Assembly: GCF_009805595.3 (NCBI RefSeq)
Contig: NZ_VMQO03000005.1
Location: 1-10,769 of the forward strand
From: Candidatus Tremblayella phenacoccinincola
Lineage (GTDB): Bacteria > Pseudomonadota > Gammaproteobacteria > Burkholderiales > Burkholderiaceae
DNA length: 10,769 nucleotides
Reading direction: 5' to 3'
A model generated the notes under the pieces. That model saw only the letters and a list, made by a program, of their open reading frames with translations, searched no databases and had not been told where the DNA came from. A program made the translations under genes and the position numbers. Positions 1 through 10,769 of the stretch are shown here, piece after piece (the first letter of the stretch is position 1; each line of letters starts with the position of its first letter).

Positions 1-33
1 GTCCACCCTCCTCCCCCCTTTTCCCCCTCTCAA
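1..33. repeat. C-tract block on + strand (G-tracts on - strand: GAGGGGGAAAAGGGGGGAGGAGGGTGGAC), immediately downstream of rnpB
   Basis: Direct reading: C6 at 13-18, C5 at 23-27, plus CCC/CC runs. There are about 24 C and 1 G in the first 40 nt. It is truncated by the window edge. Function unknown. Confidence 0.6.
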
Positions 34-87
34 CACTTCCTATAGATACAGAGTTATATTGTAAATACTATAAAGCCCTTAACCTAA

Positions 88-426
88 AAGATCTTAATAT
101 AAGCTGGGTTCTGTATAGAAAGACCATCCATATATCTAGACTAATATTCTCATATCAGCTCAAGCAGCTTACCCAAATCAATACGTTCAATATCTTAGAT
201 CTTTTATATAGCTTTGTTTCAGATGGAGCATACATATGTTATTGTTACCAACATAATAGAATGTTCTTACCATATCTTTCACCCTTACCTAAAGGCGGTA
301 TAGTTTCTGTTGCTGCTTTCGTAGACACCCTCCCAGACTTAGCTGGCATCTTGCTCTATGAAACCCGGACTTTCCTCTACTTTAAAATATATATCCAATA
401 AAAGCAGCGGTTGTATATTAATATTT
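88..426 (-). ncRNA. rnpB: RNase P RNA (bacterial type A, M1 RNA)
   Basis: The minus strand carries the conserved M1 RNA blocks in E. coli order and spacing. These are GAGGAAAGTCCGGG (377-364) followed by TTTCATAGAGCAAGATGCCAGCTAAG, then ACCGCCTTTAGGTAAGGGTGAAAGATATGGTAAGA, then GGGTAAGCTGCTTGAGCTG, and ACAGAACCCAGCTTAT (114-99). A P1 helix TTAATATA (421-414) with TATATTAA (101-94) fixes the ends to within about 5-10 nt. The E. coli comparison is from memory. Confidence 0.88.
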
Positions 427-493
427 AAACAACATCCCCATCCCATCTATTATGTCTATGTTAACTCTCACTCCTATACAAACCCATTAGTAG

Positions 494-520
494 CTTCCCC
501 TTTCCCCTTCCCCTTCCTCC
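494..520. repeat. Imperfect tandem CCCCTT-type tract (minus strand: GGAGGAAGGGGAAGGGGAAAGGGGAAGC) in the aspS-rnpB spacer
   Basis: Direct reading: CCCC at 497-500, 504-507 and 510-513, then CC at 516-517 and 519-520. A companion CCCCATCCCA lies at 436-445. By hand count the 427-596 spacer is about 40% G+C with about 4-fold more C than G on the + strand. Confidence 0.6.
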
Positions 521-596
521 AAAAGCTGAGGCTACTTAGGTTCTACTCCAACTTCAACTGCTTTTCCTGTTTGTCCTAACTATAGCATTACTTTAA

Positions 597-2297
597 CTAT
601 CTTTCTATTTCACTAGGTGCGTTTAACATCAAGTCAACAGCAGAATTACTCTTTGGAAAAGCTATTACATCTTTAATGCTTTCTGAACCAGCTATTAACA
701 TTAACAACCTATCTAAACCAAAAGCAAAGCCAGCGTGGGGAGGAGTTCCATATTTTAAAGCATTAAGCAAACAACCATAGGCTTTTTCTTGTTCTTTCTT
801 ACTAATATTTAATATATTAAAAACAGCCTTTTGGCTATTAAAGTTATTGATTCGAACAGAGCCACTTCCTATTTCATAGCCATTCATTACCATATCATAT
901 GAATTTGCAGTTATATTTATTGGATCAGCTTTAAGTAGTTCTAAATCTATATCTTTTTTTGGAGCAGTAAATGGATGATGTGTAGCTATGAGTTCATTAT
1001 TATCAGTTTTCCTAAATAAAGGAAAGTCAGTAACCCAAACAGGAAACCATCTTTTTATATATATGTGTAAGTCTTTTGCTATCTTTTCTTTTAAAATAGT
1101 TAAGAAGTTATGATCACATTTATTACTTAGCTTTATAATAAATATAAAGTCATCTATATTAGCCCTTGTATATTTTATAGCATTTATCAAAAGGTTCTTG
1201 TTATAAAACCCAAACCCCAAACTATCTTCTATATTAGGTTCATTAAAATGTTGCTTAGTTAGTTTTAACCATATAAGCTTTTGGTTATTAATATTTTCAA
1301 CATACTCTTTATATTCATTAAGCTTATCTACTGTTAAACAGATATTATTAGGAACATGTAATACTTTTCCTATATAGCAGTCATTTGTATGTTCATTACT
1401 AATAAGATCTTTAATATCAATATATTCTAAAGGATTACTTAGATCTGGCTTATCAGACCCAAACTTATATAGTGCTTCTTTATATGTCATTCTATAAAAT
1501 CGATCTAGCTTAATGCCTTTAAACTCTAACCATAAGCTTTTAATTAACTCTTCTAAAATATTATGTAGCTTATAGTCCTCCATATAAGCTGTTTCAATAT
1601 CTAACTGAGTAAACTCTGGCTGTCTGTCAGATCTTAAGTCTTCATCACGGAAGCACTTTACTATTTGATAATAACGATCATACCCTGAAACCATTAGCAA
1701 CTGTTTGTATACTTGAGGTGACTGAGGCAAAGCATAATATTTAGACTTATGGATTCTACTTGGTATTAGATATTCTCTAGAACCCTCAGTAGAATAGCTA
1801 CTTAAATATGGAGTTTCAATATCTAAGAAGCCTTTTTGATTCATATATTTTCTAATATAATTGATAACATAAGTACGCATAGTTAAGTTAGCTGTCATGT
1901 TTTTACTACGTAAGTCAATATATCTATGAATTAGTCTTTGTTCTTCATTATTATTCTTATATGATTCAATAGGTAATATATCAGATTCATTTAATATAAT
2001 AAAACCTATAGCTAATACTTCTATTTCCCCAGTAGCTATATTATTATTTATTTGAGATATTGGTCTAGCTCGCACCAAACCATCTAACTGAATGCAAAAC
2101 TCATTGTGTAGTTTTAATGCGTTAAGAAAGCAATCATTATTTTCAAACTCAATAAATACTTGAACTAAGCCTTTTATATCTCGCATTTCTATAAAAACTA
2201 GTTTACCAAGGTTCCTTATTTTATTTACCCATCCACAAATAGTAATCTTTTTTCCTATATGCAATGAACTTAGCTCTCCGCAATAGATAGTCCGCAT
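597..2297 (-). CDS. aspS: Aspartate--tRNA ligase (class II AspRS)
   Basis: The 566-aa ORF is collinear with E. coli AspRS. The N-terminus MRTIYCGELSSLHIGKKITICGWVNKIRNLGKLVFIEMRD matches [40 protein letters not shown]. Class II motifs are present (FRDEDLRSDRQPEFTQLD, GSGSVRI, GLDRLLML). An AAGGA lies about 10 nt upstream of the ATG. Stop codon is TAG. Confidence 0.97.
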   Translation of the reverse strand: MRTIYCGELSSLHIGKKITICGWVNKIRNLGKLVFIEMRDIKGLVQVFIEFENNDCFLNALKLHNEFCIQLDGLVRARPISQINNNIATGEIEVLAIGFIILNESDILPIESYKNNNEEQRLIHRYIDLRSKNMTANLTMRTYVINYIRKYMNQKGFLDIETPYLSSYSTEGSREYLIPSRIHKSKYYALPQSPQVYKQLLMVSGYDRYYQIVKCFRDEDLRSDRQPEFTQLDIETAYMEDYKLHNILEELIKSLWLEFKGIKLDRFYRMTYKEALYKFGSDKPDLSNPLEYIDIKDLISNEHTNDCYIGKVLHVPNNICLTVDKLNEYKEYVENINNQKLIWLKLTKQHFNEPNIEDSLGFGFYNKNLLINAIKYTRANIDDFIFIIKLSNKCDHNFLTILKEKIAKDLHIYIKRWFPVWVTDFPLFRKTDNNELIATHHPFTAPKKDIDLELLKADPINITANSYDMVMNGYEIGSGSVRINNFNSQKAVFNILNISKKEQEKAYGCLLNALKYGTPPHAGFAFGLDRLLMLIAGSESIKDVIAFPKSNSAVDLMLNAPSEIER

Positions 2298-2472
2298 TAT
2301 CTTTTTCCTTAAGGGTTTTGAAGTTAAATATAACTAGAAAGATATTATATGCTGTTTGGTTGCTTGTATTTTATTTCAGAAGCAGTCCAGTCCAAAGCTT
2401 TGAAACCAACCGTAATACATCCTATACACTTTTCAATAAAAGCCCATCACTAACTCATGTATAATAAATAGA

Positions 2473-2557
2473 TGGAAGGGTAGAGATTCGAACTCTAGAA
2501 TGCTTTCACATTGCTAGCTTTCAAGGCTAGTGCCTTAAACCACTCGGCCACCCCTCC
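2473..2557 (-). tRNA. serT: tRNA-Ser (anticodon UGA), long variable arm
   Basis: Minus strand: GGAGGGG TG GCC GAGTGGTTTAA GGC A CTAGC CTTGAAA GCTAG, then variable arm CAATGTGAAAGCATT C, then TAGAG TTCGAAT CTCTA CCCTTCC A. The cloverleaf folds with a 7-bp acceptor stem (one G-U). It resembles E. coli serT. No CCA is encoded. Confidence 0.9.
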
Positions 2558-2828
2558 GTAGGTTTTAATAAGATAACAGCCATATTAACTCTTCAAGCAT
2601 AAGCTATTACTACATATTAAGTAACACATTCACAGAATAGTGGAGAGTTTCATTAGCTTTTATAACAGAACGCTTCCCAGAAACAAATAACTATAGCCGC
2701 CGAACCTCGTCCTAGTTATTAAGAACTTTAGACTAATATGCTTAGCTTTATCGAGTTGTATTCGTATTAAAACCCTAAATGCCTACACTACAAACGCTTC
2801 CCCCCAATCTAACTAACAAACCATAAAC

Positions 2829-3578
2829 CTAATTATCCAGCCGCTGGCGTAGTATCTCAAATAAAGCTATTCCAGTGGCAACTGAAACATTAAGAGAACC
2901 TACTGAACCAATCATTGGAATACTAGCAACAATATCACAGGCTTTATATATGGGTTTACGAATGCCTTTATATTCACTTCCCATAATAACAGCAATAGAA
3001 CCTAAAGCTAGGTTTAGACTATACAAACTATTCTTAGATTTATCTGAAGTTCCAACTATAAATACTCTCTCTTTCTTTAATACATATAATACCTTAGATA
3101 AGTTACTAACATAAAATATAGGGAACTTACTAACAGAAAAAGTAGCAGCTTTTTTAGCTACTTCATTAAAATGCCCTGACTTGTGTCGAGTTATTATGAC
3201 TCCATGAACACCAGCTGCATTAGCACATCTCAAACAAGAACCTAAATTACGAGAATCAACAATACCATCAAGTATTAACAATAATAACTTATTTCTATAT
3301 GTGGTTAATAACTCAGCAAAGCTATCTTTATTATATTTTCTATTAGTTCTAATATATGCAACAACTCCTTGATGGACGACATTAGCTTTTATATGCTTAT
3401 AAAACCAGTTTTTATTAACTATTTTAAAGCATATCTTATATCTTTTTAGCTTTAATAAGATATGCATATGATTAGGCTTTTTACTATTTAAAATATAAGC
3501 ACATACAACCATTTCAGGAGAGCATTCTAATATATTCATTATCACATGAATACCATATACTATTTCTGTCATATTCAT
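2829..3578 (-). CDS. rlmB: 23S rRNA (guanosine-2'-O)-methyltransferase RlmB (SpoU/TrmH family)
   Basis: The 249-aa ORF is collinear with E. coli RlmB (243 aa). Matching segments are IVYGIHVI (E. coli MIYGIHAV), [31 protein letters not shown] (E. coli [31 protein letters not shown]) and [23 protein letters not shown] (E. coli [23 protein letters not shown]). Stop codon is TAG. Confidence 0.9.
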   Translation of the reverse strand: [249 protein letters not shown]

Positions 3579-3685
3579 ATTTTGTTATTAAAAAGCTTTA
3601 TAGTATCTATTATATAAAGAATAAGCTGTCATAATTATAGGATATATATATCTAGTTTAATAATAAACCCTTTTTAACTTAGAAA

Positions 3686-5314
3686 ATGAATACAACAATA
3701 ATATCAGCTTCTCAAACTGGAAACTCTCGAGAACTAGCTTTATTATTATATAATGATCTTATTAGAGAAGGTATAAAAGCCATAAACTATAACGCTTCTG
3801 ACTATAGCTTTAGTAACATAGACCAAGAAAGAATATTAGTGATCATAACATCAACATACGGGGAAGGAGAACCACCAGAAGAAGCAGTTGATCTATATAA
3901 TTATCTATTTTCAATAAAAGCTCCATTATTAAGGAATACAAACTATGCAGTCTTTAGTTTAGGTGACAGCTCATATGAATATTTCTCTAAAGTAGGAAAA
4001 GACTTCGACCATAGGCTAGCTGAACTAGGGGGGAAAAGGATATATAAAAGAATAGATGCTGATGTTAACTATAAAGAAGTGTTTGAGTTATGGAAGAAAA
4101 AGCTAATTAAGCTAATAAAAGAACTAATAAAAGAAAAACATAATAATACAAAAGCTAATACAACTAGTAATAATATAAAGCTAAAGCTAAATAATAACTA
4201 TGATATCTATAATAGAAGAGTCCTGTTTTTAGCTAACTTATCAGCCATATCTAGAGTTTCTAGTAGCCTTTCAATAAAAAATCTATTCCATATAGAGCTT
4301 AATATTGACAAAACCATAAGCTTTTCCCCAGGTGATTCATTAAGCGTATTAAATAATAATGAAAAAGCTATTGTTAAAGAGATAGCTAAATACCTAAGAA
4401 CTAATAAAGCTGAATATGTTTATTTTAATAGGAAAAAAGAATTAGTTAACAGCTTAACTAAAAGCTACTTCGAACTTACTCAAACTAACTTAATAACAAT
4501 AGAAAAAGCTGTTATTGGTTCAAAATGCGATCTTCTACAAAAGCTATTAAAAAGTAATAATATTATAAAAAAGACTATTAGGTATTTCTCAACTATTGAT
4601 TTCTTAAGATATATAAAACTATCTCTAAAAGCTAATAACTTAGTAACTATATTGAATAAGCTAAAGCCAAGGCTATATTCAATAGCATCATCACAGTTAG
4701 AAACCAAAAAAGAAATACATTTGACAGTAAGTTTAATTAAATACAAAATAGATAACTATACAAGAAAGGGAAATAGTAGTAATTATTTAATAAACTATAC
4801 AACAACTAAACCCAATCTTAAAGTAGCAGTTCAAAATAATAATAGCTTTTCTATTCCTAAAACCAAAGACATGCCAATAATTATGGTTGGTTCAGGAACT
4901 GGCATTGCTCCATTTAGATCTTTTATACAGCATAATAAGATAGTAAATAGCTTTAAAAAAAGCTGGTTATTTTTTGGAAACCCAAACTTTAACAATGACT
5001 TTATATACCAGACAGAATGGAAAAGCTATTTAAAAGCTAACATATTAAATAAGATAAGTTTAGTATGGTCTAGGGATCAAGCTATAAAGGTTTATATGCA
5101 AGATAATATAAGGAAAAAAGAACATATTATTTGGGTTTGGATAAAAGAAAATGCAGCTATATATCTATGTGGTAATGCTAGTTATATGGCTTTTGAATTA
5201 GAAAAAGCTATAGTTAATATTATATGTGAAAACAAAAACATATCATATAAAAAAGCAATAATGATATTAACTACTATGAAAAATAAACAACAATACCAAA
5301 AGGATGTCTATTAG
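3686..5314 (+). CDS. cysJ: Sulfite reductase [NADPH] flavoprotein alpha component, lacking the N-terminal about 60 aa of the E. coli protein
   Basis: The 542-aa ORF begins at the flavodoxin-like domain: TIISASQTGNSRELA matches E. coli ITIISASQTGNARRVA near residue 62. Other matches are TSTYGEGEPPEEA (FMN site), FSLGDSSYEYF, RLYSIASS (FAD site), GSGTGIAPFR (NADPH site) and C-terminal YQKDVY. An in-frame TAG at 3680-3682 excludes a longer N-terminus. Stop codon is TAG. Confidence 0.95.
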   Translation: MNTTIISASQTGNSRELALLLYNDLIREGIKAINYNASDYSFSNIDQERILVIITSTYGEGEPPEEAVDLYNYLFSIKAPLLRNTNYAVFSLGDSSYEYFSKVGKDFDHRLAELGGKRIYKRIDADVNYKEVFELWKKKLIKLIKELIKEKHNNTKANTTSNNIKLKLNNNYDIYNRRVLFLANLSAISRVSSSLSIKNLFHIELNIDKTISFSPGDSLSVLNNNEKAIVKEIAKYLRTNKAEYVYFNRKKELVNSLTKSYFELTQTNLITIEKAVIGSKCDLLQKLLKSNNIIKKTIRYFSTIDFLRYIKLSLKANNLVTILNKLKPRLYSIASSQLETKKEIHLTVSLIKYKIDNYTRKGNSSNYLINYTTTKPNLKVAVQNNNSFSIPKTKDMPIIMVGSGTGIAPFRSFIQHNKIVNSFKKSWLFFGNPNFNNDFIYQTEWKSYLKANILNKISLVWSRDQAIKVYMQDNIRKKEHIIWVWIKENAAIYLCGNASYMAFELEKAIVNIICENKNISYKKAIMILTTMKNKQQYQKDVY

Positions 5315-7007
5315 TAATAGCTCTAACTTATCTAATAATGAAATACTGAAAAAGGAAAGCAGCTTACTACGTGGTTCTATATCAAAAGACATAAAAGTTA
5401 ATATAACAGGAGGTTTTAACTATAACAACTCTCAGCTAATTAGATTTCACGGTATGTATCAACAAGATGACAGAGACTTAAGAAAAGAACGTTTAAAACA
5501 AAAGCTAGAACCTTTAGTAAATATAATGTTAAGATGCAGACTACCAGGAGGCATAATAACAACAAAGCAATGGGTTAATATAAATAGGCTTGCTACTGAA
5601 AATACATTGTATAATAACATAAGGTTAACAACTAGACAAACATTTCAACTTCATGGTATTTTAAAAGCTAACCTAAAAAATGTACATAAGGTACTAAACA
5701 AAATAGAGTTAGATTCTATTGCTACTGCTGGAGATGTAAATAGAAACATTTTATGCTCTTTTAATCCTAAAAACCCTATTAGCTATTTTAACTGTTGGTT
5801 CTGGTCAAAAAAGATATCAGTTCATTTACTTCCTAAAAGCAAGTCATATGCAGAGCTATGGTTAAAAGATAAAAAAACAGATCTAATAAAAGCTGAACCT
5901 ATATTAGGTAACAGCTACTTACCTAGAAAGTTTAAGATAGCAATAACCATTCCACCAGTAAATGACGTAGACATTTATTCAAATGATATTGGCCTTATTG
6001 CAGTTAATAAGTTAAATAACCTAATAGGTTTTAATATAGTAATAGGAGGTGGTTTATCTATTGTTCATAATGATAAAAAAACTTATCCAAAGAAAGCTAA
6101 CGAAATAGGATATATTTTCTTAAACGAAGTAATAAAGATATCAGAAGCAATAATAACTATTCAGCGCGACTTTGGTAATAGAAATAATAGGAAAGCTGCA
6201 AGAACAAAATATACCTTAGATAAAGTTAGTATTAGCTTATTTAGAAAAGAAATAGAAAAAAGAACTAACTTAAAGCTAAAGCCTATTTATCCTTATATTT
6301 TTAACAAACGCAATGATAACTTTGGCTGGCTAAAAGGAACTGATAAAAGATGGTATTTAACTCTATTCGTTCAAAATGGTCGGATTACTGATTGCCAAGA
6401 TAAACTTCTAAAAACTGGTTTAGAAAAGATAGCTAAAATACATAATAAAAGCTTTTGCATAACACCAAATCAAAACATAATTATTACTGATGTTAGCCCT
6501 AAAGCTAAACCTAAAATAGAAAGCATCATTAAAACCTATAACCTAATTAATAGAAAAGAGTCTATTCATAAAAGAAAAGCAATGGCTTGTGTTTCATTTC
6601 CTACCTGTCCTTTAGCTATGGCAGAAGCTGAAAGGTTCTTAATGCCATTCCTTAACAAGCTAGAAAAGCTTATGGTTCATAATAATATACATAAGGAATC
6701 AATAGTATTAAGAATAGCTGGTTGTCCTAATGGTTGTAGTAGAGCTATGCTATCTGAAATATGTTTAGTTGGTAAATCCATTGGAAAATATAATGTTTAT
6801 CTAGGAGGGAACTACGAAGGAACTCGTATTCCAAAGTTATATAAAGAAAATGCTAATGTAAAAGAGATCTTAAAAACTATAAACAAAACCTCTAAAGGCT
6901 GGATAAAATATAAAAGACCTAATGAACCATATGGAAGTTTTATTATAAGAACAAACCTAATAAAACCTGTTATAAACTCAGCTAATGACTTTTATAGCTT
7001 ATTATAG
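5304..7007 (+). CDS. cysI: Sulfite reductase [NADPH] hemoprotein beta component (siroheme/[4Fe-4S])
   Basis: The 567-aa ORF is collinear with E. coli CysI (570 aa). Matches include IRFHGMYQQDDRDLR, LRCRLPGGIITTKQW, YLPRKFKIA, ACVSFPTCPLAMAEAERF and GCPNGCSRA, so all four cluster/siroheme Cys ligands are retained. It overlaps the cysJ 3' end by 11 nt. Stop codon is TAG. Confidence 0.97.
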   Translation: MSISNSSNLSNNEILKKESSLLRGSISKDIKVNITGGFNYNNSQLIRFHGMYQQDDRDLRKERLKQKLEPLVNIMLRCRLPGGIITTKQWVNINRLATENTLYNNIRLTTRQTFQLHGILKANLKNVHKVLNKIELDSIATAGDVNRNILCSFNPKNPISYFNCWFWSKKISVHLLPKSKSYAELWLKDKKTDLIKAEPILGNSYLPRKFKIAITIPPVNDVDIYSNDIGLIAVNKLNNLIGFNIVIGGGLSIVHNDKKTYPKKANEIGYIFLNEVIKISEAIITIQRDFGNRNNRKAARTKYTLDKVSISLFRKEIEKRTNLKLKPIYPYIFNKRNDNFGWLKGTDKRWYLTLFVQNGRITDCQDKLLKTGLEKIAKIHNKSFCITPNQNIIITDVSPKAKPKIESIIKTYNLINRKESIHKRKAMACVSFPTCPLAMAEAERFLMPFLNKLEKLMVHNNIHKESIVLRIAGCPNGCSRAMLSEICLVGKSIGKYNVYLGGNYEGTRIPKLYKENANVKEILKTINKTSKGWIKYKRPNEPYGSFIIRTNLIKPVINSANDFYSLL

Positions 7008-7024
7008 TTTATTATATAAAACCT

Positions 7025-7753
7025 ATGGTAGAAATAAAACATAGCTTTTATCTTTATCTTAAAAAAGACCTAACTAAAAGAATAATATTATCTTTAAATA
7101 AACAACTAAAAGCCTTAACAGTTCTAAAAAGAATAAGATGGTCATTTGAAACCTTACCTCAAAATACCATTCTTTCTTCTAGCTTTGGCATACATTCAGC
7201 TGCTATACTAAAACTAATAACTTACCAAATACCAGGTGTTTATATAATAGTAATAGATACTGGTTATTTATTTAAAGAAACCTATAGGTTTATCGAAAGG
7301 CTAACCCTTAAATTAAAACTAAATACAAATATAAACCGTTCTAATATTTCTAGTAGATGGCAAGAAATAAGATACGGAAAGCTATGGAATAAAGGGAAAG
7401 AGGGCATTGTTCTGTATAATAAAATAAATAAAGTTAAACCAATGAATTATATATTAAAAAAGCATAACATAAACACATGGTTTGCTGGCTTACGAAATGA
7501 ACAATCTAAAAGTAGAACTAACCTATTAGCTTTAAATATTAACAACAACCTATTTAAGATGCTACCAATTATTGACTTAAACGGACGTGATGTATTCTTT
7601 TTACTAAGGAGAAATATGTTAAACTTTAACCCATTATGGAATATAGGCTATGTTTCATTAGGAGATGCTCATACTACCTGCATATATAAAGCTGGTATGA
7701 AAGAAGAGGACACAAGGTTTTATGGCATAAAAAGAGAATGTGGGTTACATTAA
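7025..7753 (+). CDS. cysH: Phosphoadenosine phosphosulfate (PAPS) reductase
   Basis: The 242-aa ORF is collinear with E. coli CysH (244 aa). Matches include LSSSFGIHSAA, DTGYLFKETYRFIE, RYGKLW, WFAGLRNEQS and the C-terminal catalytic motif KRECGLH. Stop codon is TAA. Confidence 0.95.
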   Translation: MVEIKHSFYLYLKKDLTKRIILSLNKQLKALTVLKRIRWSFETLPQNTILSSSFGIHSAAILKLITYQIPGVYIIVIDTGYLFKETYRFIERLTLKLKLNTNINRSNISSRWQEIRYGKLWNKGKEGIVLYNKINKVKPMNYILKKHNINTWFAGLRNEQSKSRTNLLALNINNNLFKMLPIIDLNGRDVFFLLRRNMLNFNPLWNIGYVSLGDAHTTCIYKAGMKEEDTRFYGIKRECGLH

Positions 7754-7821
7754 CTATAAGGTATTTTAAATACAATACCCCAAAAGCTACTAGAAGTACG
7801 TTCCTATAGTAATCATAATAA

Positions 7822-7895
7822 GGTGGTTGTAGTTCAGCTGGTAGAATCCTGGTTTGTGGTTCCAGTGGTCGTGGGTTCAAAACCCACCAATCACC
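7822..7895 (+). tRNA. hisR: tRNA-His (anticodon GUG) with encoded G-1
   Basis: G GTGGTTG TA GTTC AGCTGGTA GAAT C CTGGT TTGTGGT TCCAG TGGTC GTGGG TTCAAAA CCCAC CAATCAC C. This aligns block for block with E. coli tRNA-His, including the extra 5' G opposite C73. The following bases are TCCA, so there is no clean encoded CCA. Confidence 0.9.
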
Positions 7896-7908
7896 TCCAA
7901 GACTATAA

Positions 7909-7990
7909 GCGAAGGTGGCGAAATAGGTAAACGCGCTAGACTCAGAAGCTAGTATCTTAATCTATAAGGGTTCGAGTCCCTTTCTTCGCA
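7909..7990 (+). tRNA. leuT: tRNA-Leu (anticodon CAG), class II long variable arm
   Basis: GCGAAGG TG GCG AAATAGGTAAA CGC G CTAGA CTCAGAA GCTAG, then a variable arm, then AAGGG TTCGAGT CCCTT TCTTCGC A. The 5' half is nearly identical to E. coli leuT (GCGAAGGTGGCGGAATTGGTAGACGCGCTAG). No CCA is encoded. Confidence 0.9.
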
Positions 7991-8002
7991 TATACATCTA
8001 GT

Positions 8003-8076
8003 CGGTGAGTAGCGCAGCTTGGTAGCGTAACTAGTTTGGGACTAGTGGGTCAGAGGTTCAAATCCTCTCTCACCGA
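8003..8076 (+). tRNA. proM: tRNA-Pro (anticodon UGG)
   Basis: CGGTGAG TA GCGC AGCTTGGTA GCGT A ACTAG TTTGGGA CTAGT GGGTC AGAGG TTCAAAT CCTCT CTCACCG A. It is collinear with E. coli proM. No CCA is encoded (next bases are CTA). Confidence 0.9.
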
Positions 8077-8180
8077 CTAGGCTTGTTTTAACTTCTTTGT
8101 CGATATATATAGGTATTTCTATGAATAAGATATAACATTAAACTAGCAACCCCATTTCCCCCCATTATATATTCAAGCAT

Positions 8181-8927
8181 ATGTTTGGTAAAAAGATAAA
8201 GCTAATATGGAATACCATAAAACTAGAAGCTAAACTATTAACAGACTATGAACCTATATTAAAGAAGTCCTTCTTTTATAGGTTTTTAGTACATAAGGTA
8301 TTTAACAGCTCATTATTATACATTTTGACAAAAGCCCTAAAAAGCAAACCTATAATAAAGACTATAAATATAAGAACAATAAATAATATGTATGCATATA
8401 ACCCAAAGCTAACCCCAAATGCTATTCAAGATATCTTTATATTTTCCCTAAAAGATCCAATAATAAATAAGTATATTATGCCAATGCTATATTTAAAAGG
8501 CTTCCACGTCTTATGCATATATCGTTTATATAGTTGTATTTGGAACCAAAATAGTCAGTTCTTATCTACCTATATCCAAAATAAAATATCAGTAGTTCTA
8601 AACATAGATATCCATCCAGCTTCCTACATTGGCAACGAAATAATATTTGATCATGCAACTGGAATTGTAATAGGTGAAACATCAATCCTAAAAAAAAGCA
8701 TAACTATTTTACAGCAGGTAACATTAGGAGGAACTGGAAAGCTAAAAGGTAACCGACACCCTAAAATAAATGAAGAAGTAACTATTGGAGCTGGAACATC
8801 AGTTTTAGGTAATATAAAAATAGATAATAAAGTAAAAATAGGAGCTGGGACAGTGGTATTACATTCGATTCCAAAAAGCAAAACAGCTGTTGGTATTCCA
8901 GCTAAACTAACCCCACATGAATTCTAA
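8181..8927 (+). CDS. cysE: Serine O-acetyltransferase, lacking the C-terminal about 20-25 aa of the E. coli protein
   Basis: The 248-aa ORF is collinear with E. coli CysE (273 aa). Matches are IWNTIKLEAKLLTDYEPIL (E. coli IVWNNIKAEARTLADCEPML), LYLKGFH, and the hexapeptide-repeat core DIHPASYIGNEIIFDHATGIVIGETS...LQQVTLGGTGK...RHPKINEEVTIGAGTSVLGNIKI. It ends at GIPAKLTPHEF, just after the E. coli GVPARIV position. Stop codon is TAA. Confidence 0.93.
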   Translation: MFGKKIKLIWNTIKLEAKLLTDYEPILKKSFFYRFLVHKVFNSSLLYILTKALKSKPIIKTINIRTINNMYAYNPKLTPNAIQDIFIFSLKDPIINKYIMPMLYLKGFHVLCIYRLYSCIWNQNSQFLSTYIQNKISVVLNIDIHPASYIGNEIIFDHATGIVIGETSILKKSITILQQVTLGGTGKLKGNRHPKINEEVTIGAGTSVLGNIKIDNKVKIGAGTVVLHSIPKSKTAVGIPAKLTPHEF

Positions 8928-8930
8928 TCT

Positions 8931-10460
8931 TTATTGGTTCGTTTTTAAAGGACGCATAGTTGGAAACAATATAACATCTCGTATACTACTGGCATTAGCT
9001 AATAACATAACTAATCGATCTATACCAATGCCTAAACCAGCAGTTGGTGGAAGTCCGTATTCTAAAGACTTAATGTAATCATCATCATATAAAACTAAAC
9101 GATCATTAGGATCTTTTTCTTTTATTTGTTTTAAAAAAGCTAATGACTGTTCACTTGAATCATTCAACTCTGAAAACCCATTTCCAACTTCTTTACCATT
9201 TATAAACACTTCAAAACGCTCACTCAAAAAAGTATTACTGTCTAAACGCCGAGCTAGAGGAGAAACTTCAGAAGGATAGTTAATAATAAAGGTAGGCTGT
9301 TTCAATTTACCTTCAACAACGCTTTTAAATAGATGCGTTTGAGCTTTACCTAAACCCCATTCCTTTTCTATATTAATATCTAAAGAGCTAGCTATTTCAG
9401 AAACTAATTTAATATCATTTAGGTCAGAATATCTTATACCTGAACAAAAGCTACATATTGATTCTAACATTGGTATTTTAATAAATGCTTTACTAAAATC
9501 TAATACAGTATTACCATAATTAATAGTATTACTTCCTAATATACTTTTAGTAATGTATTTATATAGATCTTCAACTAAATCCATAAGATCGTTATAATTA
9601 GCATAAACCATATATAGCTCCATCATAGTAAACTCAGGATTATGGTAAGATGAAAGACCTTCGTTTCGAAAGCTACGGTTGATCTCAAATATCTTTTCAA
9701 GTCCACCTACTACCAAACGTTTCAAATATAATTCAGGAGCTATCCGAAGAAACATATCAATATTCAAAGTATTATGATGAGTAATAAAAGGACGCGCAAA
9801 AGCGCCACCTGGTATTGTATGCATCATAGGGGTTTCTACTTCAATAAAACTATTACTTAACATATAGCTTCGTAGTTCTGATATAATATGAGATCTAGCT
9901 ATAAATATATTTCGAGACTTTTCATTAAAAACTAAATCTAAATAACGTTGTCGATAACATAGTTCTTTATTTATTAAACCATGAAACTTATTAGGAAAAG
10001 CTCTAACTGATTTAGTTAATAACCGTATATCATAGCAACATATAGATAGTTCTCCTGCTTTTGTTTTAAATAGTTTACCACATGCGCCAACAATATCACC
10101 TAAATCTAATAAGTTAACTTGTTCTTTATATTCAGAAAAGAAACCACAAGATAAGTATAGCTGGATTTTACCACCCGAGTCTTGAATAGTCAAAAAAGAT
10201 ATTTTACCGAAGTCTCGAATATTAACTACTCTGCCTGCAACTGCTATATTAATATTTAATATGTTTAATAGTTCATTGGGTTTATTATCATAGTTTAAAT
10301 GTAAGCTATTAGAAATAGAATCTCTGCGAAAGCTATTTGGAAATATAATAGTTTCTTTTTTAGAACACAAGCTTAACAACTTATATTTACGTCTATAATA
10401 CTCACTATCAATAAAAGCTTTTGATATATTATATTCTATAGCTGAACCAACCATAACCAT
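8931..10460 (-). CDS. lysS: Lysine--tRNA ligase (class II LysRS)
   Basis: The 509-aa ORF is collinear with E. coli LysS (505 aa). Matches include FPNSFRRD, VAGRVVNIRDFGKISFLTIQDSGGKIQLY, YRQRYLDL, VETPMMHTIPGGAFARPFITHHN, RIAPELYLKRLVVGG, FRNEGLSSYHNPEFTMMELY and PPTAGLGIGIDRLVMLL. A strong SD lies upstream. Stop codon is TAA. Confidence 0.97.
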   Translation of the reverse strand: MVMVGSAIEYNISKAFIDSEYYRRKYKLLSLCSKKETIIFPNSFRRDSISNSLHLNYDNKPNELLNILNINIAVAGRVVNIRDFGKISFLTIQDSGGKIQLYLSCGFFSEYKEQVNLLDLGDIVGACGKLFKTKAGELSICCYDIRLLTKSVRAFPNKFHGLINKELCYRQRYLDLVFNEKSRNIFIARSHIISELRSYMLSNSFIEVETPMMHTIPGGAFARPFITHHNTLNIDMFLRIAPELYLKRLVVGGLEKIFEINRSFRNEGLSSYHNPEFTMMELYMVYANYNDLMDLVEDLYKYITKSILGSNTINYGNTVLDFSKAFIKIPMLESICSFCSGIRYSDLNDIKLVSEIASSLDINIEKEWGLGKAQTHLFKSVVEGKLKQPTFIINYPSEVSPLARRLDSNTFLSERFEVFINGKEVGNGFSELNDSSEQSLAFLKQIKEKDPNDRLVLYDDDYIKSLEYGLPPTAGLGIGIDRLVMLLANASSIRDVILFPTMRPLKTNQ

Positions 10461-10466
10461 ACAAAG

Positions 10467-10476
10467 CTCCTCTCCT
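10467..10476 (-). promoter_or_regulatory. Shine-Dalgarno region of lysS (AGGAGAGGAG), overlapping the prfB stop codon
   Basis: The minus strand reads TAAGGAGAGGAGCTTTGTATG. The GGAG ends 6 nt before the lysS ATG at 10460. This is the only strong SD I see in the window. Confidence 0.6.
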
Positions 10477-10769
10477 TATAAACCATTCCTAAGGTTCTCT
10501 ATAATAAACATATCTATATTACCATCTAATACCGACTGAACATCTCGAGATTCTAAGCCAGTGCGAAGGTCTTTAACAAGAGAATTATCTAATATATAAG
10601 ATCTAATTTGATTACCCCAACTAATACTAAACTTAGTATCTTCAATGCTTTTCTTTTCAATAGTTTTTTTAGTAAGTTCAAGTTGATATAATTTAGACTT
10701 CAGTTGTTTTAACGCATATTCTTTATTTCTATGCTGAGACCTACTACTTTGACACTGAGTTGTTATATT
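10476..10769 (-). CDS. prfB: Peptide chain release factor 2, 3' partial (5' end beyond the window); the reading frame is interrupted at CTT TGA (10683-10678), so it is either a +1 recoding site or a pseudogene
   Basis: This gene is not in the ORF track because it has no in-window start. The upstream frame translates as [30 protein letters not shown] followed by TGA. The +1 frame continues [67 protein letters not shown] and ends at TAA (10478-10476). Joined, the two pieces align without gaps to the E. coli RF2 C-terminus ([82 protein letters not shown]...). The prfB-lysS order matches E. coli. Confidence 0.85.

What the first reader, a model, noticed from the sequence alone, without database searches (positions are those of the whole stretch)
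1..10769. The palindromic tetranucleotide AGCT is strongly over-represented in every sequence class
Hand counts give about 32 AGCT in cysJ (1.6 kb), about 23 in cysI (1.7 kb) and about 17 in aspS (1.7 kb). Independent base frequencies at this composition predict roughly 3-4 per gene. In cysJ the same-composition palindromes are rare by comparison (TGCA about 3, TCGA about 3, GATC about 6). AGCT occurs in all three codon phases: NNA GCT (aaa gct), AGC TNN (agc ttt, agc tta, agc tac) and NAG CTN (aag cta, gag ctt). Codon choice appears to follow it. In cysJ, Ser AGC is at least as common as AGT, and about 9 of 11 AGC codons are followed by T. Lys AAG clusters in front of CTN Leu codons. AGCT also sits at variable positions of RNA genes where, from memory, E. 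coli has other bases: the tRNA-His D-loop AGCTGG (7836-7839) versus AGTTGG, tRNA-Pro AGCTTGG (8016-8019) versus AGCCTGG, and two paired AGCT in rnpB versus GGCT/AGCC. This points to a DNA-level force acting against the genome's AT bias rather than codon preference. As inference, one candidate is a context-specific methylation and very-short-patch-type repair system that preserves or creates AGCT, analogous to the Dcm/Vsr-driven oligonucleotide skews described in E. coli. Another is a mutational context effect, and a third is a protein-binding word.
Basis: partly seen in the sequence, partly recalled or inferred. Interest (0 to 1): 0.72.

Follow-up and report, generated by a model that had tools for sequence, protein, structure and literature searches.

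The report
AGCT excess: a context-specific mutation hotspot
In this tiny insect-symbiont genome the DNA word AGCT is about 4.5 times too common and AATT about 5 times too rare, most likely because A:T pairs in a few specific neighbourhoods change to G:C about 12-15 times faster than elsewhere, not because AGCT is a functional site.

Summary
AGCT occurs 134 times against 29 expected from base composition and 68 expected from dinucleotides, and it ranks 1st of 256 tetranucleotides. It is enriched in CDS, RNA genes and spacers, and in all three codon phases. With protein sequence and codon usage held fixed the count is 115 against 60 (z=10).

AATT is the most depleted word (31 against 150-159 expected).

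The window is a complete contig that NCBI names 'Candidatus Tremblaya phenacola', the beta/gamma chimeric mealybug symbiont. Three related assemblies share the signature. More than 80 control loci do not, including Blochmannia, Palibaumannia, Profftia and Doolittlea.

At synonymous sites, G/C is favoured only in a few contexts, and the pattern is reverse-complement symmetric (r=0.81-0.85). The contexts are RR[T>C]Y, equivalently R[A>G]YY. AATT therefore drains through AACT/AGTT into AGCT.

Two independent sequence comparisons give an A:T>G:C rate 12-15 times higher in these contexts, with the G:C>A:T rate unchanged. This fits a mutational hotspot. It does not fit selection for a word or protection of cytosines.

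AGCT positions are not conserved, with 47% shared with the PPER strain. A Vsr-like system was neither supported nor excluded. The molecular cause is unknown.

The parts
1..10769 (.). 134 AGCT sites across the whole contig, the most over-represented tetranucleotide
   Evidence: list of positions; O/E 4.5-4.6; z about 9.7 against dinucleotide shuffles
1..10769 (.). 31 AATT sites, the mirror outlier and the source state of the AATT > AACT/AGTT > AGCT pathway
   Evidence: 31 against 150 +/- 10.7; 27 against 108 in the synonymous shuffle, z=-11.6; O/E: spacer 0.08, CDS 0.21, RNA 0
3686..5314 (+). cysJ, 31 AGCT (phases 9/7/15)
5304..7007 (+). cysI, 24 AGCT (phases 7/6/11)
597..2297 (-). aspS, 17 AGCT (phases 2/6/9)
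2829..3578 (-). rlmB, 8 AGCT
7025..7753 (+). cysH, 6 AGCT
8181..8927 (+). cysE, 10 AGCT
8931..10460 (-). lysS, 19 AGCT
85..426 (-). rnpB (RNase P RNA), 5 AGCT (at 102, 157, 166, 210, 341) against 1 in E. coli rnpB; derived from GGCT/AGCC/GGCC/AGGT
7822..8077 (+). tRNA-His, tRNA-Leu and tRNA-Pro, one AGCT each (7836, 7947, 8016), the same number as the E. coli orthologues

Best explanation
AGCT is the end state of a context-specific, strand-symmetric mutational bias. It is not a recognised word.

In this lineage, a T flanked as 5'-RR[T]Y-3' changes to C about 12-15 times faster than A:T pairs in other contexts. On the other strand this is an A flanked as 5'-R[A]YY-3' changing to G. The strongest contexts are AA[T]T, AG[T]T, AA[T]C and GA[T]T. 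The reverse change (G:C>A:T) runs at the ordinary rate.

AATT is hit on both strands and so drains away. It passes through AACT/AGTT into AGCT. In AGCT both G:C pairs sit in the favoured context, so the word accumulates. The same rule turns GATT/AATC into GGTT/AACC.

What is shown: the rule, its strand symmetry, the rate asymmetry, and that the rule alone can generate the word bias.

What is inferred: the molecular source. The most likely source is T:G / A:C replication mispairs that go uncorrected in a drastically reduced genome without mismatch repair, so that the polymerase's own context bias is exposed.
For: 1. Lineage-specific signature.
- AGCT O/E is 3.8-4.9 and ranks 1st in the window, L081 (98.65% identical), L082 (81-88%) and L087 (the contig I take to be T. 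phenacola PPER, 84.6%).
- AATT O/E is 0.11-0.20 and ranks 253-256.
- In 80 control loci plus Blochmannia, Palibaumannia, Profftia, Apibacter and Doolittlea, AGCT is 0.5-1.7 and AATT 0.6-1.5.

2. Context rule at synonymous transition sites.
- G fraction / complementary C fraction: A[R]TT 0.77 / AA[Y]T 0.76; G[R]TT 0.79 / AA[Y]C 0.70; A[R]CT 0.53 / AG[Y]T 0.74; A[R]TC 0.53 / GA[Y]T 0.56. The baseline is about 0.1.
- Reverse-complement symmetry is r=0.81. It is replicated in PPER at r=0.85, and the window and PPER context profiles correlate at r=0.85.
- The rule is absent in Blochmannia (r=-0.09) and weak in Palibaumannia (r=0.37).

3. Rates from a two-state model, hot contexts against other contexts.
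- A:T>G:C ratio: 12.0 (95% 3.6-28.7) for window-L081 and 15.1 (8.7-33.9) for window-L087.
- G:C>A:T ratio: 0.92 (0.27-2.28) and 0.98 (0.54-2.13).
- Selection of the strength needed predicts 2.9 and 0.19.
- Raw transition divergence: 7/233 against 16/2309 (p=0.003), 6/24 against 30/352 (p=0.019), and 43/127 against 157/1467 (p=4.5e-11).
- Divergence rises with context GC fraction (Spearman 0.84).

4. Sufficiency. A neutral simulation used only these context-dependent T>C rates.
- It gives AGCT O/E 5.5 (rank 1), AATT 0.34 (rank 252) and GC 29%.
- Its 256-word profile correlates with the observed one at r=0.66, against r=0.16 for a flat model.

5. Turnover.
- 63 AGCT sites are shared with PPER, 71 are window-only and 87 are PPER-only.
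- The most volatile words are the pathway intermediates GGTT, AGTT, AACT and AACC.

6. The force also changes proteins.
- Only 1 of 20 AGC|T serine codons lies where orthologues have Ser, against 30% for other Ser codons (p=0.024). The orthologue residues are Asn, Lys and Asp.

7. Background from the literature.
- Triplet-context transition rates are much more dispersed in mismatch-repair-deficient bacteria (PMC11890065).
- The published sister genome is 221 kb with 229 genes (PMC11014885).
Against: - The hot contexts were chosen from the same sequences later used to estimate rates, so some winner's curse is possible. The size of the effect and its replication in PPER argue that it is real.
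- The two-state model assumes stationarity and equal constraint at synonymous sites.
- A combination of general hypermutability of these contexts (about 5 times in both directions) with selection for G/C would fit the rates equally well.
- Parsimony polarisation of the 121 window/L081 differences gives only a roughly 5-fold T>C excess (4/355 against 16/7173) and a 1.8-fold C>T excess in hot contexts. The numbers are small and the outgroup is saturated.
- The simulation leaves a good part of the word profile unexplained (r=0.66). It does not reproduce the strength of the AACC/GGTT excess or the GTAC/CATG depletion.
- Only about 10 kb of DNA was available, all of it of gammaproteobacterial origin.
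- Absence of mismatch repair in this genome was not checked.
Confidence: 0.62

Rival explanations
1. Dedicated biased mismatch correction. A Vsr-like nickase or a T:G / A:C-specific glycosylase, possibly paired with an AGCT (AluI-type) cytosine methyltransferase and possibly host-encoded and imported, converts T:G mismatches in AGTT-like contexts to C:G. This would create AGCT in the way Dcm/Vsr creates CCWGG in E. coli.
For: The direction and kind of change fit: T>C in a defined context, strand symmetric, about 12-15 times elevated. AATT depletion resembles CTAG depletion by relaxed Vsr specificity (own knowledge of the E. coli system). In population-genetic terms, correction of replication mismatches behaves as mutation bias, so the rate test does not exclude it.
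Against: - G:C>A:T is not reduced in the target contexts (ratio 0.92-0.98).
- The canonical substrates AGTT/AACT are not depleted (O/E 1.37).
- The context set AA[T]T, AA[T]C, GA[T]T, AG[T]T, plus AT[T]T in PPER, is broader than one recognition site.
- A genome of 229 genes is unlikely to keep a methylase/Vsr pair.
- No such gene could be searched for here.
Confidence: 0.12
2. Selection on the words themselves. AATT (and GTAC, CATG) are avoided as restriction targets or for structural reasons. AGCT is favoured as a binding, methylation or density-dependent functional site.
For: The two extreme words are both 4-bp palindromes, and several other palindromes are depleted. In the window, AGCT spacing is more even than random (CV 0.72, no gap above 237 bp, P about 0.001 or lower). 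The A/T choice at the flanks of GC also leans towards A..T.
Against: - Rates contradict selection. Selection predicts G:C>A:T slowed to 0.19 and A:T>G:C raised only 2.9 times. Observed values are 0.92-0.98 and 12-15.
- AGCT positions are no more conserved than average (47% against 52.7%).
- The even spacing is not replicated in PPER (CV 0.92) or L082 (CV 0.97).
- There is no longer motif.
- The per-site selection needed (2Ns of about 2.75 at about one site per 80 bp) is implausible in a bottlenecked endosymbiont (inference from population genetics).
- The trinucleotide-corrected ratio is 1.06-1.12.
Confidence: 0.1
3. Protection of cytosines. The C in AGCT-like contexts is chemically protected, for example by N4-methylation or a bound protein, and so escapes the C>T decay that drives AT richness.
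For: It would explain retention of G:C in specific contexts against the AT pressure, with strand symmetry.
Against: It predicts an unchanged A:T>G:C rate, a G:C>A:T rate lower by about 15-fold, and less divergence in these contexts. The observations are the reverse: 3-4 times more divergence and a G:C>A:T ratio of about 1.
Confidence: 0.03
4. By-product of amino-acid composition, codon usage or translational codon-pair preference.
For: GCT is the preferred Ala codon (92 of 128), and phase NNA|GCT contributes 60 of the 115 coding sites.
Against: - The excess persists with protein and codon usage fixed (115 against 60; all phases z of 4.8 or more).
- It is present in spacers and rnpB.
- It is reverse-complement symmetric between unrelated codon families.
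- It is absent from orthologous genes in other AT-rich symbionts.
Confidence: 0.03

Closest known systems
Dcm/Vsr (very-short-patch repair) oligonucleotide skew in E. coli: CCWGG and CCAG/CTGG enriched, CTAG depleted
   Same: A strand-symmetric, context-specific T>C bias at the DNA level. It enriches one short palindrome-related word and depletes a related word, in all codon phases and against the general mutation pressure.
   Different: Here C>T is not reduced in the context, and the direct T-containing precursors are not depleted. The context set is broader than one site. No methyltransferase or Vsr gene is known or likely in a genome of about 229 genes. CTAG itself is enriched here (O/E 1.4).
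Context-dependent transition hotspots in mismatch-repair-deficient bacteria (mutation-accumulation studies; PMC11890065; 5'-NAC-3' hotspots for A:T>G:C in E. coli, from own knowledge of Lee et al. 2012 and Sung et al. 2015)
   Same: Transitions depend strongly on flanking bases once mismatch repair is absent. A:T>G:C is the affected class. The effect is a mutation bias, not selection.
   Different: The contexts differ: RR[T]Y with an influence of the -2 base, rather than G[T]N/N[A]C. Here the effect is read from long-term equilibrium and divergence, not from direct mutation counts. Its strength is enough to make one tetranucleotide 4.5 times over-represented and, in simulation, to lift GC content by about 10 points.
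CpG depletion by methylation and deamination
   Same: A neighbour-dependent mutation rate shapes the frequency of a short palindromic word genome-wide and in all sequence classes.
   Different: The sign is opposite for AGCT (creation rather than decay). The rate that changes is A:T>G:C, not C>T.
Restriction-site (short palindrome) avoidance
   Same: AATT, GTAC, CATG, CCGG and GGCC are depleted 4-bp palindromes.
   Different: Avoidance is a selective process and never enriches a palindrome. The substitution rates here do not fit selection. Restriction-modification is not expected in a 221-kb endosymbiont genome.
Functional over-represented words (Chi, KOPS, DNA uptake sequences, Dam GATC)
   Same: A short word far above expectation and spread along the whole sequence.
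   Different: Those words are longer and/or strand-skewed, and are conserved or clustered where they act. AGCT here shows free positional turnover, no extended motif, and an excess explained by its trinucleotides.

Membership tests
Vsr/Dcm-type very-short-patch repair skew | A cognate C5-cytosine methyltransferase and a T:G-mismatch endonuclease gene are present in the genome | not testable with these tools
   Only this 10.8-kb contig and its orthologous contigs could be retrieved. The published sister genome has 229 genes.
Vsr/Dcm-type very-short-patch repair skew | T>C is elevated in the recognition context | tested here: met
   A:T>G:C is 12-15 times higher in AG[T]T, AA[T]T, AA[T]C and GA[T]T.
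Vsr/Dcm-type very-short-patch repair skew | C>T is lowered in the recognition context, and the T-containing substrate words are depleted | tested here: not met
   The G:C>A:T ratio is 0.92-0.98. AGTT/AACT O/E is 1.37.
Vsr/Dcm-type very-short-patch repair skew | The contexts affected are one site and its near variants | tested here: inconclusive
   AA[T]C and GA[T]T differ from AG[T]T at two positions. AT[T]T is also high in PPER.
Context-dependent mutation bias (neutral) | The effect is reverse-complement symmetric and independent of codon phase and sequence class | tested here: met
   r=0.81 and 0.85. All three phases are enriched. CDS, RNA and spacer are all enriched.
Context-dependent mutation bias (neutral) | The forward rate changes while the reverse rate does not, and flux is proportional to the frequency of the favoured state | tested here: met
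   Rate ratios are 12-15 against about 1. Spearman correlation of divergence with GC fraction is 0.84.
Context-dependent mutation bias (neutral) | The single-site context rule is sufficient to produce the word bias | tested here: met
   Simulation gives AGCT 5.5 (rank 1), AATT 0.34 (rank 252) and r=0.66 over 256 words. The test is partly circular because the rates came from the same sequences.
Context-dependent mutation bias (neutral) | The same bias appears in newly arising mutations | not testable with these tools
   No read-level or mutation-accumulation data were available. Polarised differences are too few.
Restriction avoidance or selected functional word | Substitution pattern of selection: the favoured-to-unfavoured rate is reduced | tested here: not met
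   Predicted 0.19; observed 0.92-0.98, with the 95% interval of the larger comparison at 0.54-2.13.
Restriction avoidance or selected functional word | Positional conservation of sites, or a longer motif | tested here: not met
   47% of sites are shared against 52.7% for all 4-mers. The flanks are close to background.

The most novel reading that the evidence does not exclude
The A:T>G:C conversion in RR[T]Y contexts is carried out by a dedicated activity retained or imported by this 221-kb chimeric symbiont. Candidates are a T:G/A:C mismatch-specific nickase or glycosylase, or a context-specific base-modifying enzyme, possibly host-encoded. Such an activity would act as a brake on AT drift, holding GC content roughly ten points above the flat-rate expectation of the simulation.
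Probability: 0.12. Interest if true: 0.8.

Novelty: new variant of a known kind. Interest (0 to 1): 0.5.

Why it matters
It gives an unusually clean natural example of a neighbour-dependent mutation rate writing a strong oligonucleotide signature. One word ranks 1st and another last of 256.

The same process changes codon choice and even amino acids, for example Asn to Ser and Thr or Val to Ala. In simulation it raises the GC content of a reduced genome from about 20% to about 29%.

The signature is specific to the T. phenacola sequences sampled here. It could serve to test how long the beta- and gamma-derived halves of this fused genome have shared one replication machinery. It could also reveal which replication or repair loss exposes the hotspot.

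It is also a warning. A striking palindrome excess need not mean methylation, restriction or protein binding.

Tried and rejected
- Exact-protein look-ups for the window's CysI, LysS and AspS found nothing.
- The single genome-contig scan returned only relatives at 56% identity or less. These were used as controls.
- A search with the truncated PrfB fragment at the contig end, meant to walk onto other T. phenacola contigs and reach beta-origin DNA, returned only the same two contigs.
- The PPER genome paper (PMC5739004) is not held.
- BLAST of rnpB against E. coli found nothing. The E. coli gene was fetched by coordinates instead.
- A longer motif around AGCT was looked for and not found. Flanks are near background apart from fewer G at -1 and more A at -2/-3.
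- Regular spacing of AGCT looked significant in the window but failed to replicate in PPER and L082. It was dropped as evidence for function.
- A preference for A before conserved Ala GCT codons, which would be a true word-level flank effect, was weak (19 against 11).
- Parsimony polarisation with PPER as outgroup is biased at saturated hot sites and gave only small numbers.
- Literature searches for a reported AGCT excess, a Vsr link, or the two Logan run accessions found nothing relevant.

Full report
**What the window is**

The window encodes, in order:
- rnpB (85-426, minus strand)
- aspS (597-2297, minus)
- tRNA-Ser
- rlmB (2829-3578, minus)
- cysJ (3686-5314, plus), cysI (5304-7007, plus), cysH (7025-7753, plus)
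- tRNA-His, tRNA-Leu and tRNA-Pro
- cysE (8181-8927, plus)
- lysS (8931-10460, minus)
- the last 97 codons of prfB, running off the right end

GC content is 30%.

The CysI protein and the PrfB fragment are 100% identical to NCBI proteins named 'Candidatus Tremblaya phenacola'. Those proteins sit on a contig of exactly 10,769 bp, so the window is a whole deposited contig.

T. phenacola PSOL and PPER are described as beta/gamma-proteobacterial genome fusions. The PSOL genome is 221 kb with 229 genes, and the cysteine genes are of Sodalis-allied gamma origin (PMC11014885; PMC5664097). This agrees with the 50-58% identity to Sodalis, Blochmannia and similar proteins.

Three relatives were retrieved:
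- L081, a Logan contig, syntenic and 98.65% identical over 10.2 kb.
- L082, a Logan contig of 2.8 kb, 81-88% identical.
- L087, contig MKGN01000021.1 of assembly GCA_002682985.1, 10,719 bp, syntenic and 84.6% identical. I take this to be strain PPER from my own recollection of the accession. That assignment is not verified here.

Yes. AGCT occurs 134 times.
- Base composition predicts 29 (O/E 4.57, rank 1 of 256).
- Dinucleotide content predicts 68. The tool's shuffles give 68.0 +/- 6.8, and 0 of 200 reach 134.

Shuffling synonymous codons within genes keeps protein sequence and codon usage. Against that null the coding count is 115 against 60.1 expected (z=10.4). All three phases are enriched (29/12.7, 26/6.2, 60/41.2).

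Enrichment holds in CDS (O/E 4.8), RNA genes (3.7) and spacers (3.2).

Among the 24 permutations of A, C, G and T, only TAGC/GCTA (2.44), which contain AGC or GCT, come anywhere near AGCT.

Two qualifications apply.
- The maximal-order Markov ratio is only 1.12 (1.06 in L087). Of 346 GC dinucleotides, 210 are preceded by A and 197 are followed by T. The two flanks are nearly independent (AGCT: AGCA+TGCT: TGCA = 134: 81: 20). The excess is therefore carried by AGC/GCT, and the palindrome adds little.
- The RNA evidence was partly mistaken. E. coli tRNA-Pro(UGG) also reads AGCTTGG. tRNA-His and tRNA-Leu merely moved their single AGCT. Only rnpB has a real surplus: 5 against 1 in E. coli, arising from GGCT, AGCC, GGCC and AGGT.

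**The missed half of the signal**

In the same synonymous-shuffle null the strongest negative outlier is AATT (27 against 108, z=-11.6). Overall AATT occurs 31 times against 150 +/- 10.7 in dinucleotide shuffles. It is depleted in every class, with O/E 0.08 in spacers, 0.21 in CDS and 0 in RNA genes. GATT/AATC are also low (0.38). AACT/AGTT (1.37), AACC/GGTT (2.15) and GGCT/AGCC (1.68) are high.

**Lineage specificity**

The window, L081, L082 and L087 all rank AGCT first (O/E 3.8-4.9) and AATT 253rd-256th (0.11-0.20).

The controls do not show this. They are 80 loci around cysI from other bacteria, plus Blochmannia (26% GC), Palibaumannia (33%), Profftia (32%), Apibacter (29%) and the mealybug symbiont Doolittlea. 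In them AGCT is 0.5-1.7 and AATT 0.6-1.5. The signature is therefore not a general property of AT-rich reduced genomes.

**The rule behind it**

At third codon positions where a transition is synonymous, the share of G (against A) or C (against T) depends strongly on neighbours. It is the same on both strands:

| R-site context | G fraction | Complementary Y-site context | C fraction |
|---|---|---|---|
| A[R]TT | 0.77 | AA[Y]T | 0.76 |
| G[R]TT | 0.79 | AA[Y]C | 0.70 |
| A[R]CT | 0.53 | AG[Y]T | 0.74 |
| A[R]TC | 0.53 | GA[Y]T | 0.56 |

Most other contexts lie near 0.1. Over 40 context pairs r=0.81, p=4e-10.

The R sites are in Lys, Glu, Gln, Leu and Arg codons. The Y sites are in Asn, Asp, Ser and similar codons. 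The symmetry therefore cannot come from translation.

The pattern replicates in L087 (r=0.85 over 48 pairs; profile correlation with the window 0.85). It is absent in Blochmannia (r=-0.09) and faint in Palibaumannia (r=0.37).

In words: within 5'-RR[T/C]Y-3', C is favoured. AATT is such a context on both strands, and AGCT is the doubly converted product. Concrete consequences seen in the window:
- Ile after A is ATA 79 against ATT 10.
- Asn before T is AAC 28 against AAT 10.
- Ser AGY before T is AGC 29 against AGT 10.
- Lys/Glu/Gln before TT end in G 23 times against A 7 times.

**Mutation or selection?**

For a site that switches between two states, the equilibrium frequency and the divergence between two sequences together give the forward and reverse substitution rates. 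I used synonymous transition sites with identical +/-2 context in both sequences. I compared the eight hot contexts with all other contexts.

| Comparison | A:T>G:C rate ratio (95%) | G:C>A:T rate ratio (95%) |
|---|---|---|
| Window-L081 | 12.0 (3.6-28.7) | 0.92 (0.27-2.28) |
| Window-L087 | 15.1 (8.7-33.9) | 0.98 (0.54-2.13) |
| Prediction under selection | 2.9 | 0.19 |

Selection strong enough to move the equilibrium from 0.12-0.14 to about 0.7 gives the predicted row. Protection of cytosine predicts about 1 for A:T>G:C and well below 0.1 for G:C>A:T.

The raw counts point the same way:
- 7/233 against 16/2309 (p=0.003) for window-L081.
- 6/24 against 30/352 (p=0.019) for window-L082.
- 43/127 against 157/1467 (p=4.5e-11) for window-L087.

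Across 43 contexts, divergence rises with GC fraction (Spearman 0.84). This is what a constant C>T rate with a variable T>C rate predicts.

AGCT sites turn over freely. Sixty-three are shared with L087, 71 are window-only and 87 are L087-only. That is 47% conservation, against 52.7% for all 4-mers. The least conserved words are the pathway intermediates GGTT, AGTT, AACT and AACC.

Between the window and L081, 12 of the 121 differences create or destroy an AATT.

The force also reaches non-synonymous positions. Only 1 of 20 AGC|T serines sits where orthologues have Ser, against 30% for other serines (p=0.024). The orthologue residues are Asn, Lys and Asp. Asn to Ser is the change AAC|T to AGC|T.

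**Sufficiency**

I ran a neutral simulation in which only the T>C rate depends on the -2, -1 and +1 neighbours. The other rates were taken from the polarised window/L081 spectrum.

| Quantity | Simulated | Observed |
|---|---|---|
| GC content | 29.1% | 30.1% |
| AGCT O/E (rank) | 5.5 (1) | 4.5 (1) |
| AATT O/E (rank) | 0.34 (252) | 0.19 (254) |
| AACT/AGTT O/E | 1.5 | 1.37 |

The simulated 256-word profile correlates with the observed one at r=0.66. A flat-rate model gives r=0.16 and 19.6% GC.

The test is partly circular, because the rates come from the same sequences. It does show that no palindrome-recognising agent is required.

**Mechanism**

What is shown is a strand-symmetric, context-specific excess of A:T>G:C substitutions that behaves like mutation rather than selection.

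What is inferred is its source. The most economical reading is T:G / A:C replication mispairs left uncorrected in a genome of about 229 genes, so that the replicase's context bias is exposed. Mismatch-repair-deficient bacteria show far more dispersed triplet-context transition rates than wild type (PMC11890065). I did not verify that T. phenacola lacks mutS/mutL.

A dedicated T:G-correcting activity of the Vsr kind remains possible, because it would also register as mutation bias. The unchanged C>T rate, the undepleted AGTT/AACT and the breadth of contexts do not favour it.

A mixture of general hypermutability of these contexts with selection for G/C cannot be formally excluded.

**Limits**

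- All evidence comes from about 10 kb of gamma-origin DNA in four related assemblies.
- I could not retrieve beta-origin DNA of the same genome. Testing it would decide whether the process is genome-wide.
- The hot contexts were defined on the data later used for the rates.
- The depletion of GTAC (0.17) and CATG (0.40), and the frequent A<>T transversions, are not explained by the model.

**Verdict**

- The most likely mechanism is a mutational context hotspot. This is a new variant of a known kind of process, not a methylation, repair or binding system.
- Interest is moderate. The case is a striking and cleanly analysable one of mutation bias shaping k-mer usage, codon choice, protein sequence and GC content in a fused minimal genome.

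Noticed in passing
window 1-10769; L087 1-10719: The window is an entire deposited contig. The orthologous contig of the other strain has almost the same boundaries (10,769 against 10,719 bp). Both end inside prfB, leaving only a C-terminal fragment (97 aa here, at 10476-10769 on the minus strand). The left end is a C-rich stretch (GTCCACCCTCCTCCCCCC...). This fits the published remark that repeats flank the contigs and that subgenomic molecules may coexist.
   Followed up: partly
window-wide; window against L081: A<>T transversions are the commonest difference between the two closest strains (49 of 121). After polarisation T>A is 41 of 95, ahead of C>T (26) and T>C (20). This is unusual for bacteria, where transitions normally dominate.
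   Followed up: partly
window-wide: Other 4-bp palindromes are also extreme and are not explained by the hotspot model: GTAC 0.17, CATG 0.40, CCGG 0.18, GGCC 0.36. CTAG is enriched (1.4) and TpA is above expectation (rho 1.12). Both are the reverse of what is usual in Enterobacterales.
   Followed up: no
window coding regions: Ile is encoded mainly by ATA (195) rather than ATT (108). ATT is almost excluded after A (10 against 79 ATA) and after G (4 against 19), but not after T (77 against 72). Leu CTA (88) exceeds CTT (32).
   Followed up: partly
window 1-10769 (AGCT sites): AGCT spacing in the window is more even than random: CV 0.72, the lowest of 46 frequent words; no gap above 237 bp; half the expected number of gaps under 20 bp. 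The low CV and the lack of long gaps are not reproduced in L087 (CV 0.92) or L082 (CV 0.97). A deficit of short gaps is still seen in L087 (23 against 38 expected).
   Followed up: yes
window 3686-5314 (cysJ): CysJ (542 aa) aligns to the family model only from model position 61 onward. It therefore lacks about 60 N-terminal residues present in free-living homologues. cysJ and cysI overlap by 11 bases (5304-5314).
   Followed up: no
window 597-2297 (aspS); L081, L082, L087: AspS of this lineage (562-568 aa) shows no hit to the GAD insertion domain (PF02938). Every other listed homologue (about 580-600 aa) has that hit.
   Followed up: no
L084 (Palibaumannia cicadellinicola): A faint version of the same context profile appears in this other reduced symbiont. 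AG[Y]T has GC fraction 0.38 and AA[Y]T 0.29, against 0.19 overall. AGCT O/E is 1.69 (rank 8), and the correlation with the window profile is r=0.37. The T. phenacola hotspot may therefore be an amplified form of a widespread weak bias.
   Followed up: partly
window 85-426 (rnpB), helix around 157-169: The paired GGCU/AGCC of E. coli RNase P RNA has become AGCU/AGCU here. A G-C pair was replaced by A-U through changes on both sides, which creates two AGCT at once.
   Followed up: partly
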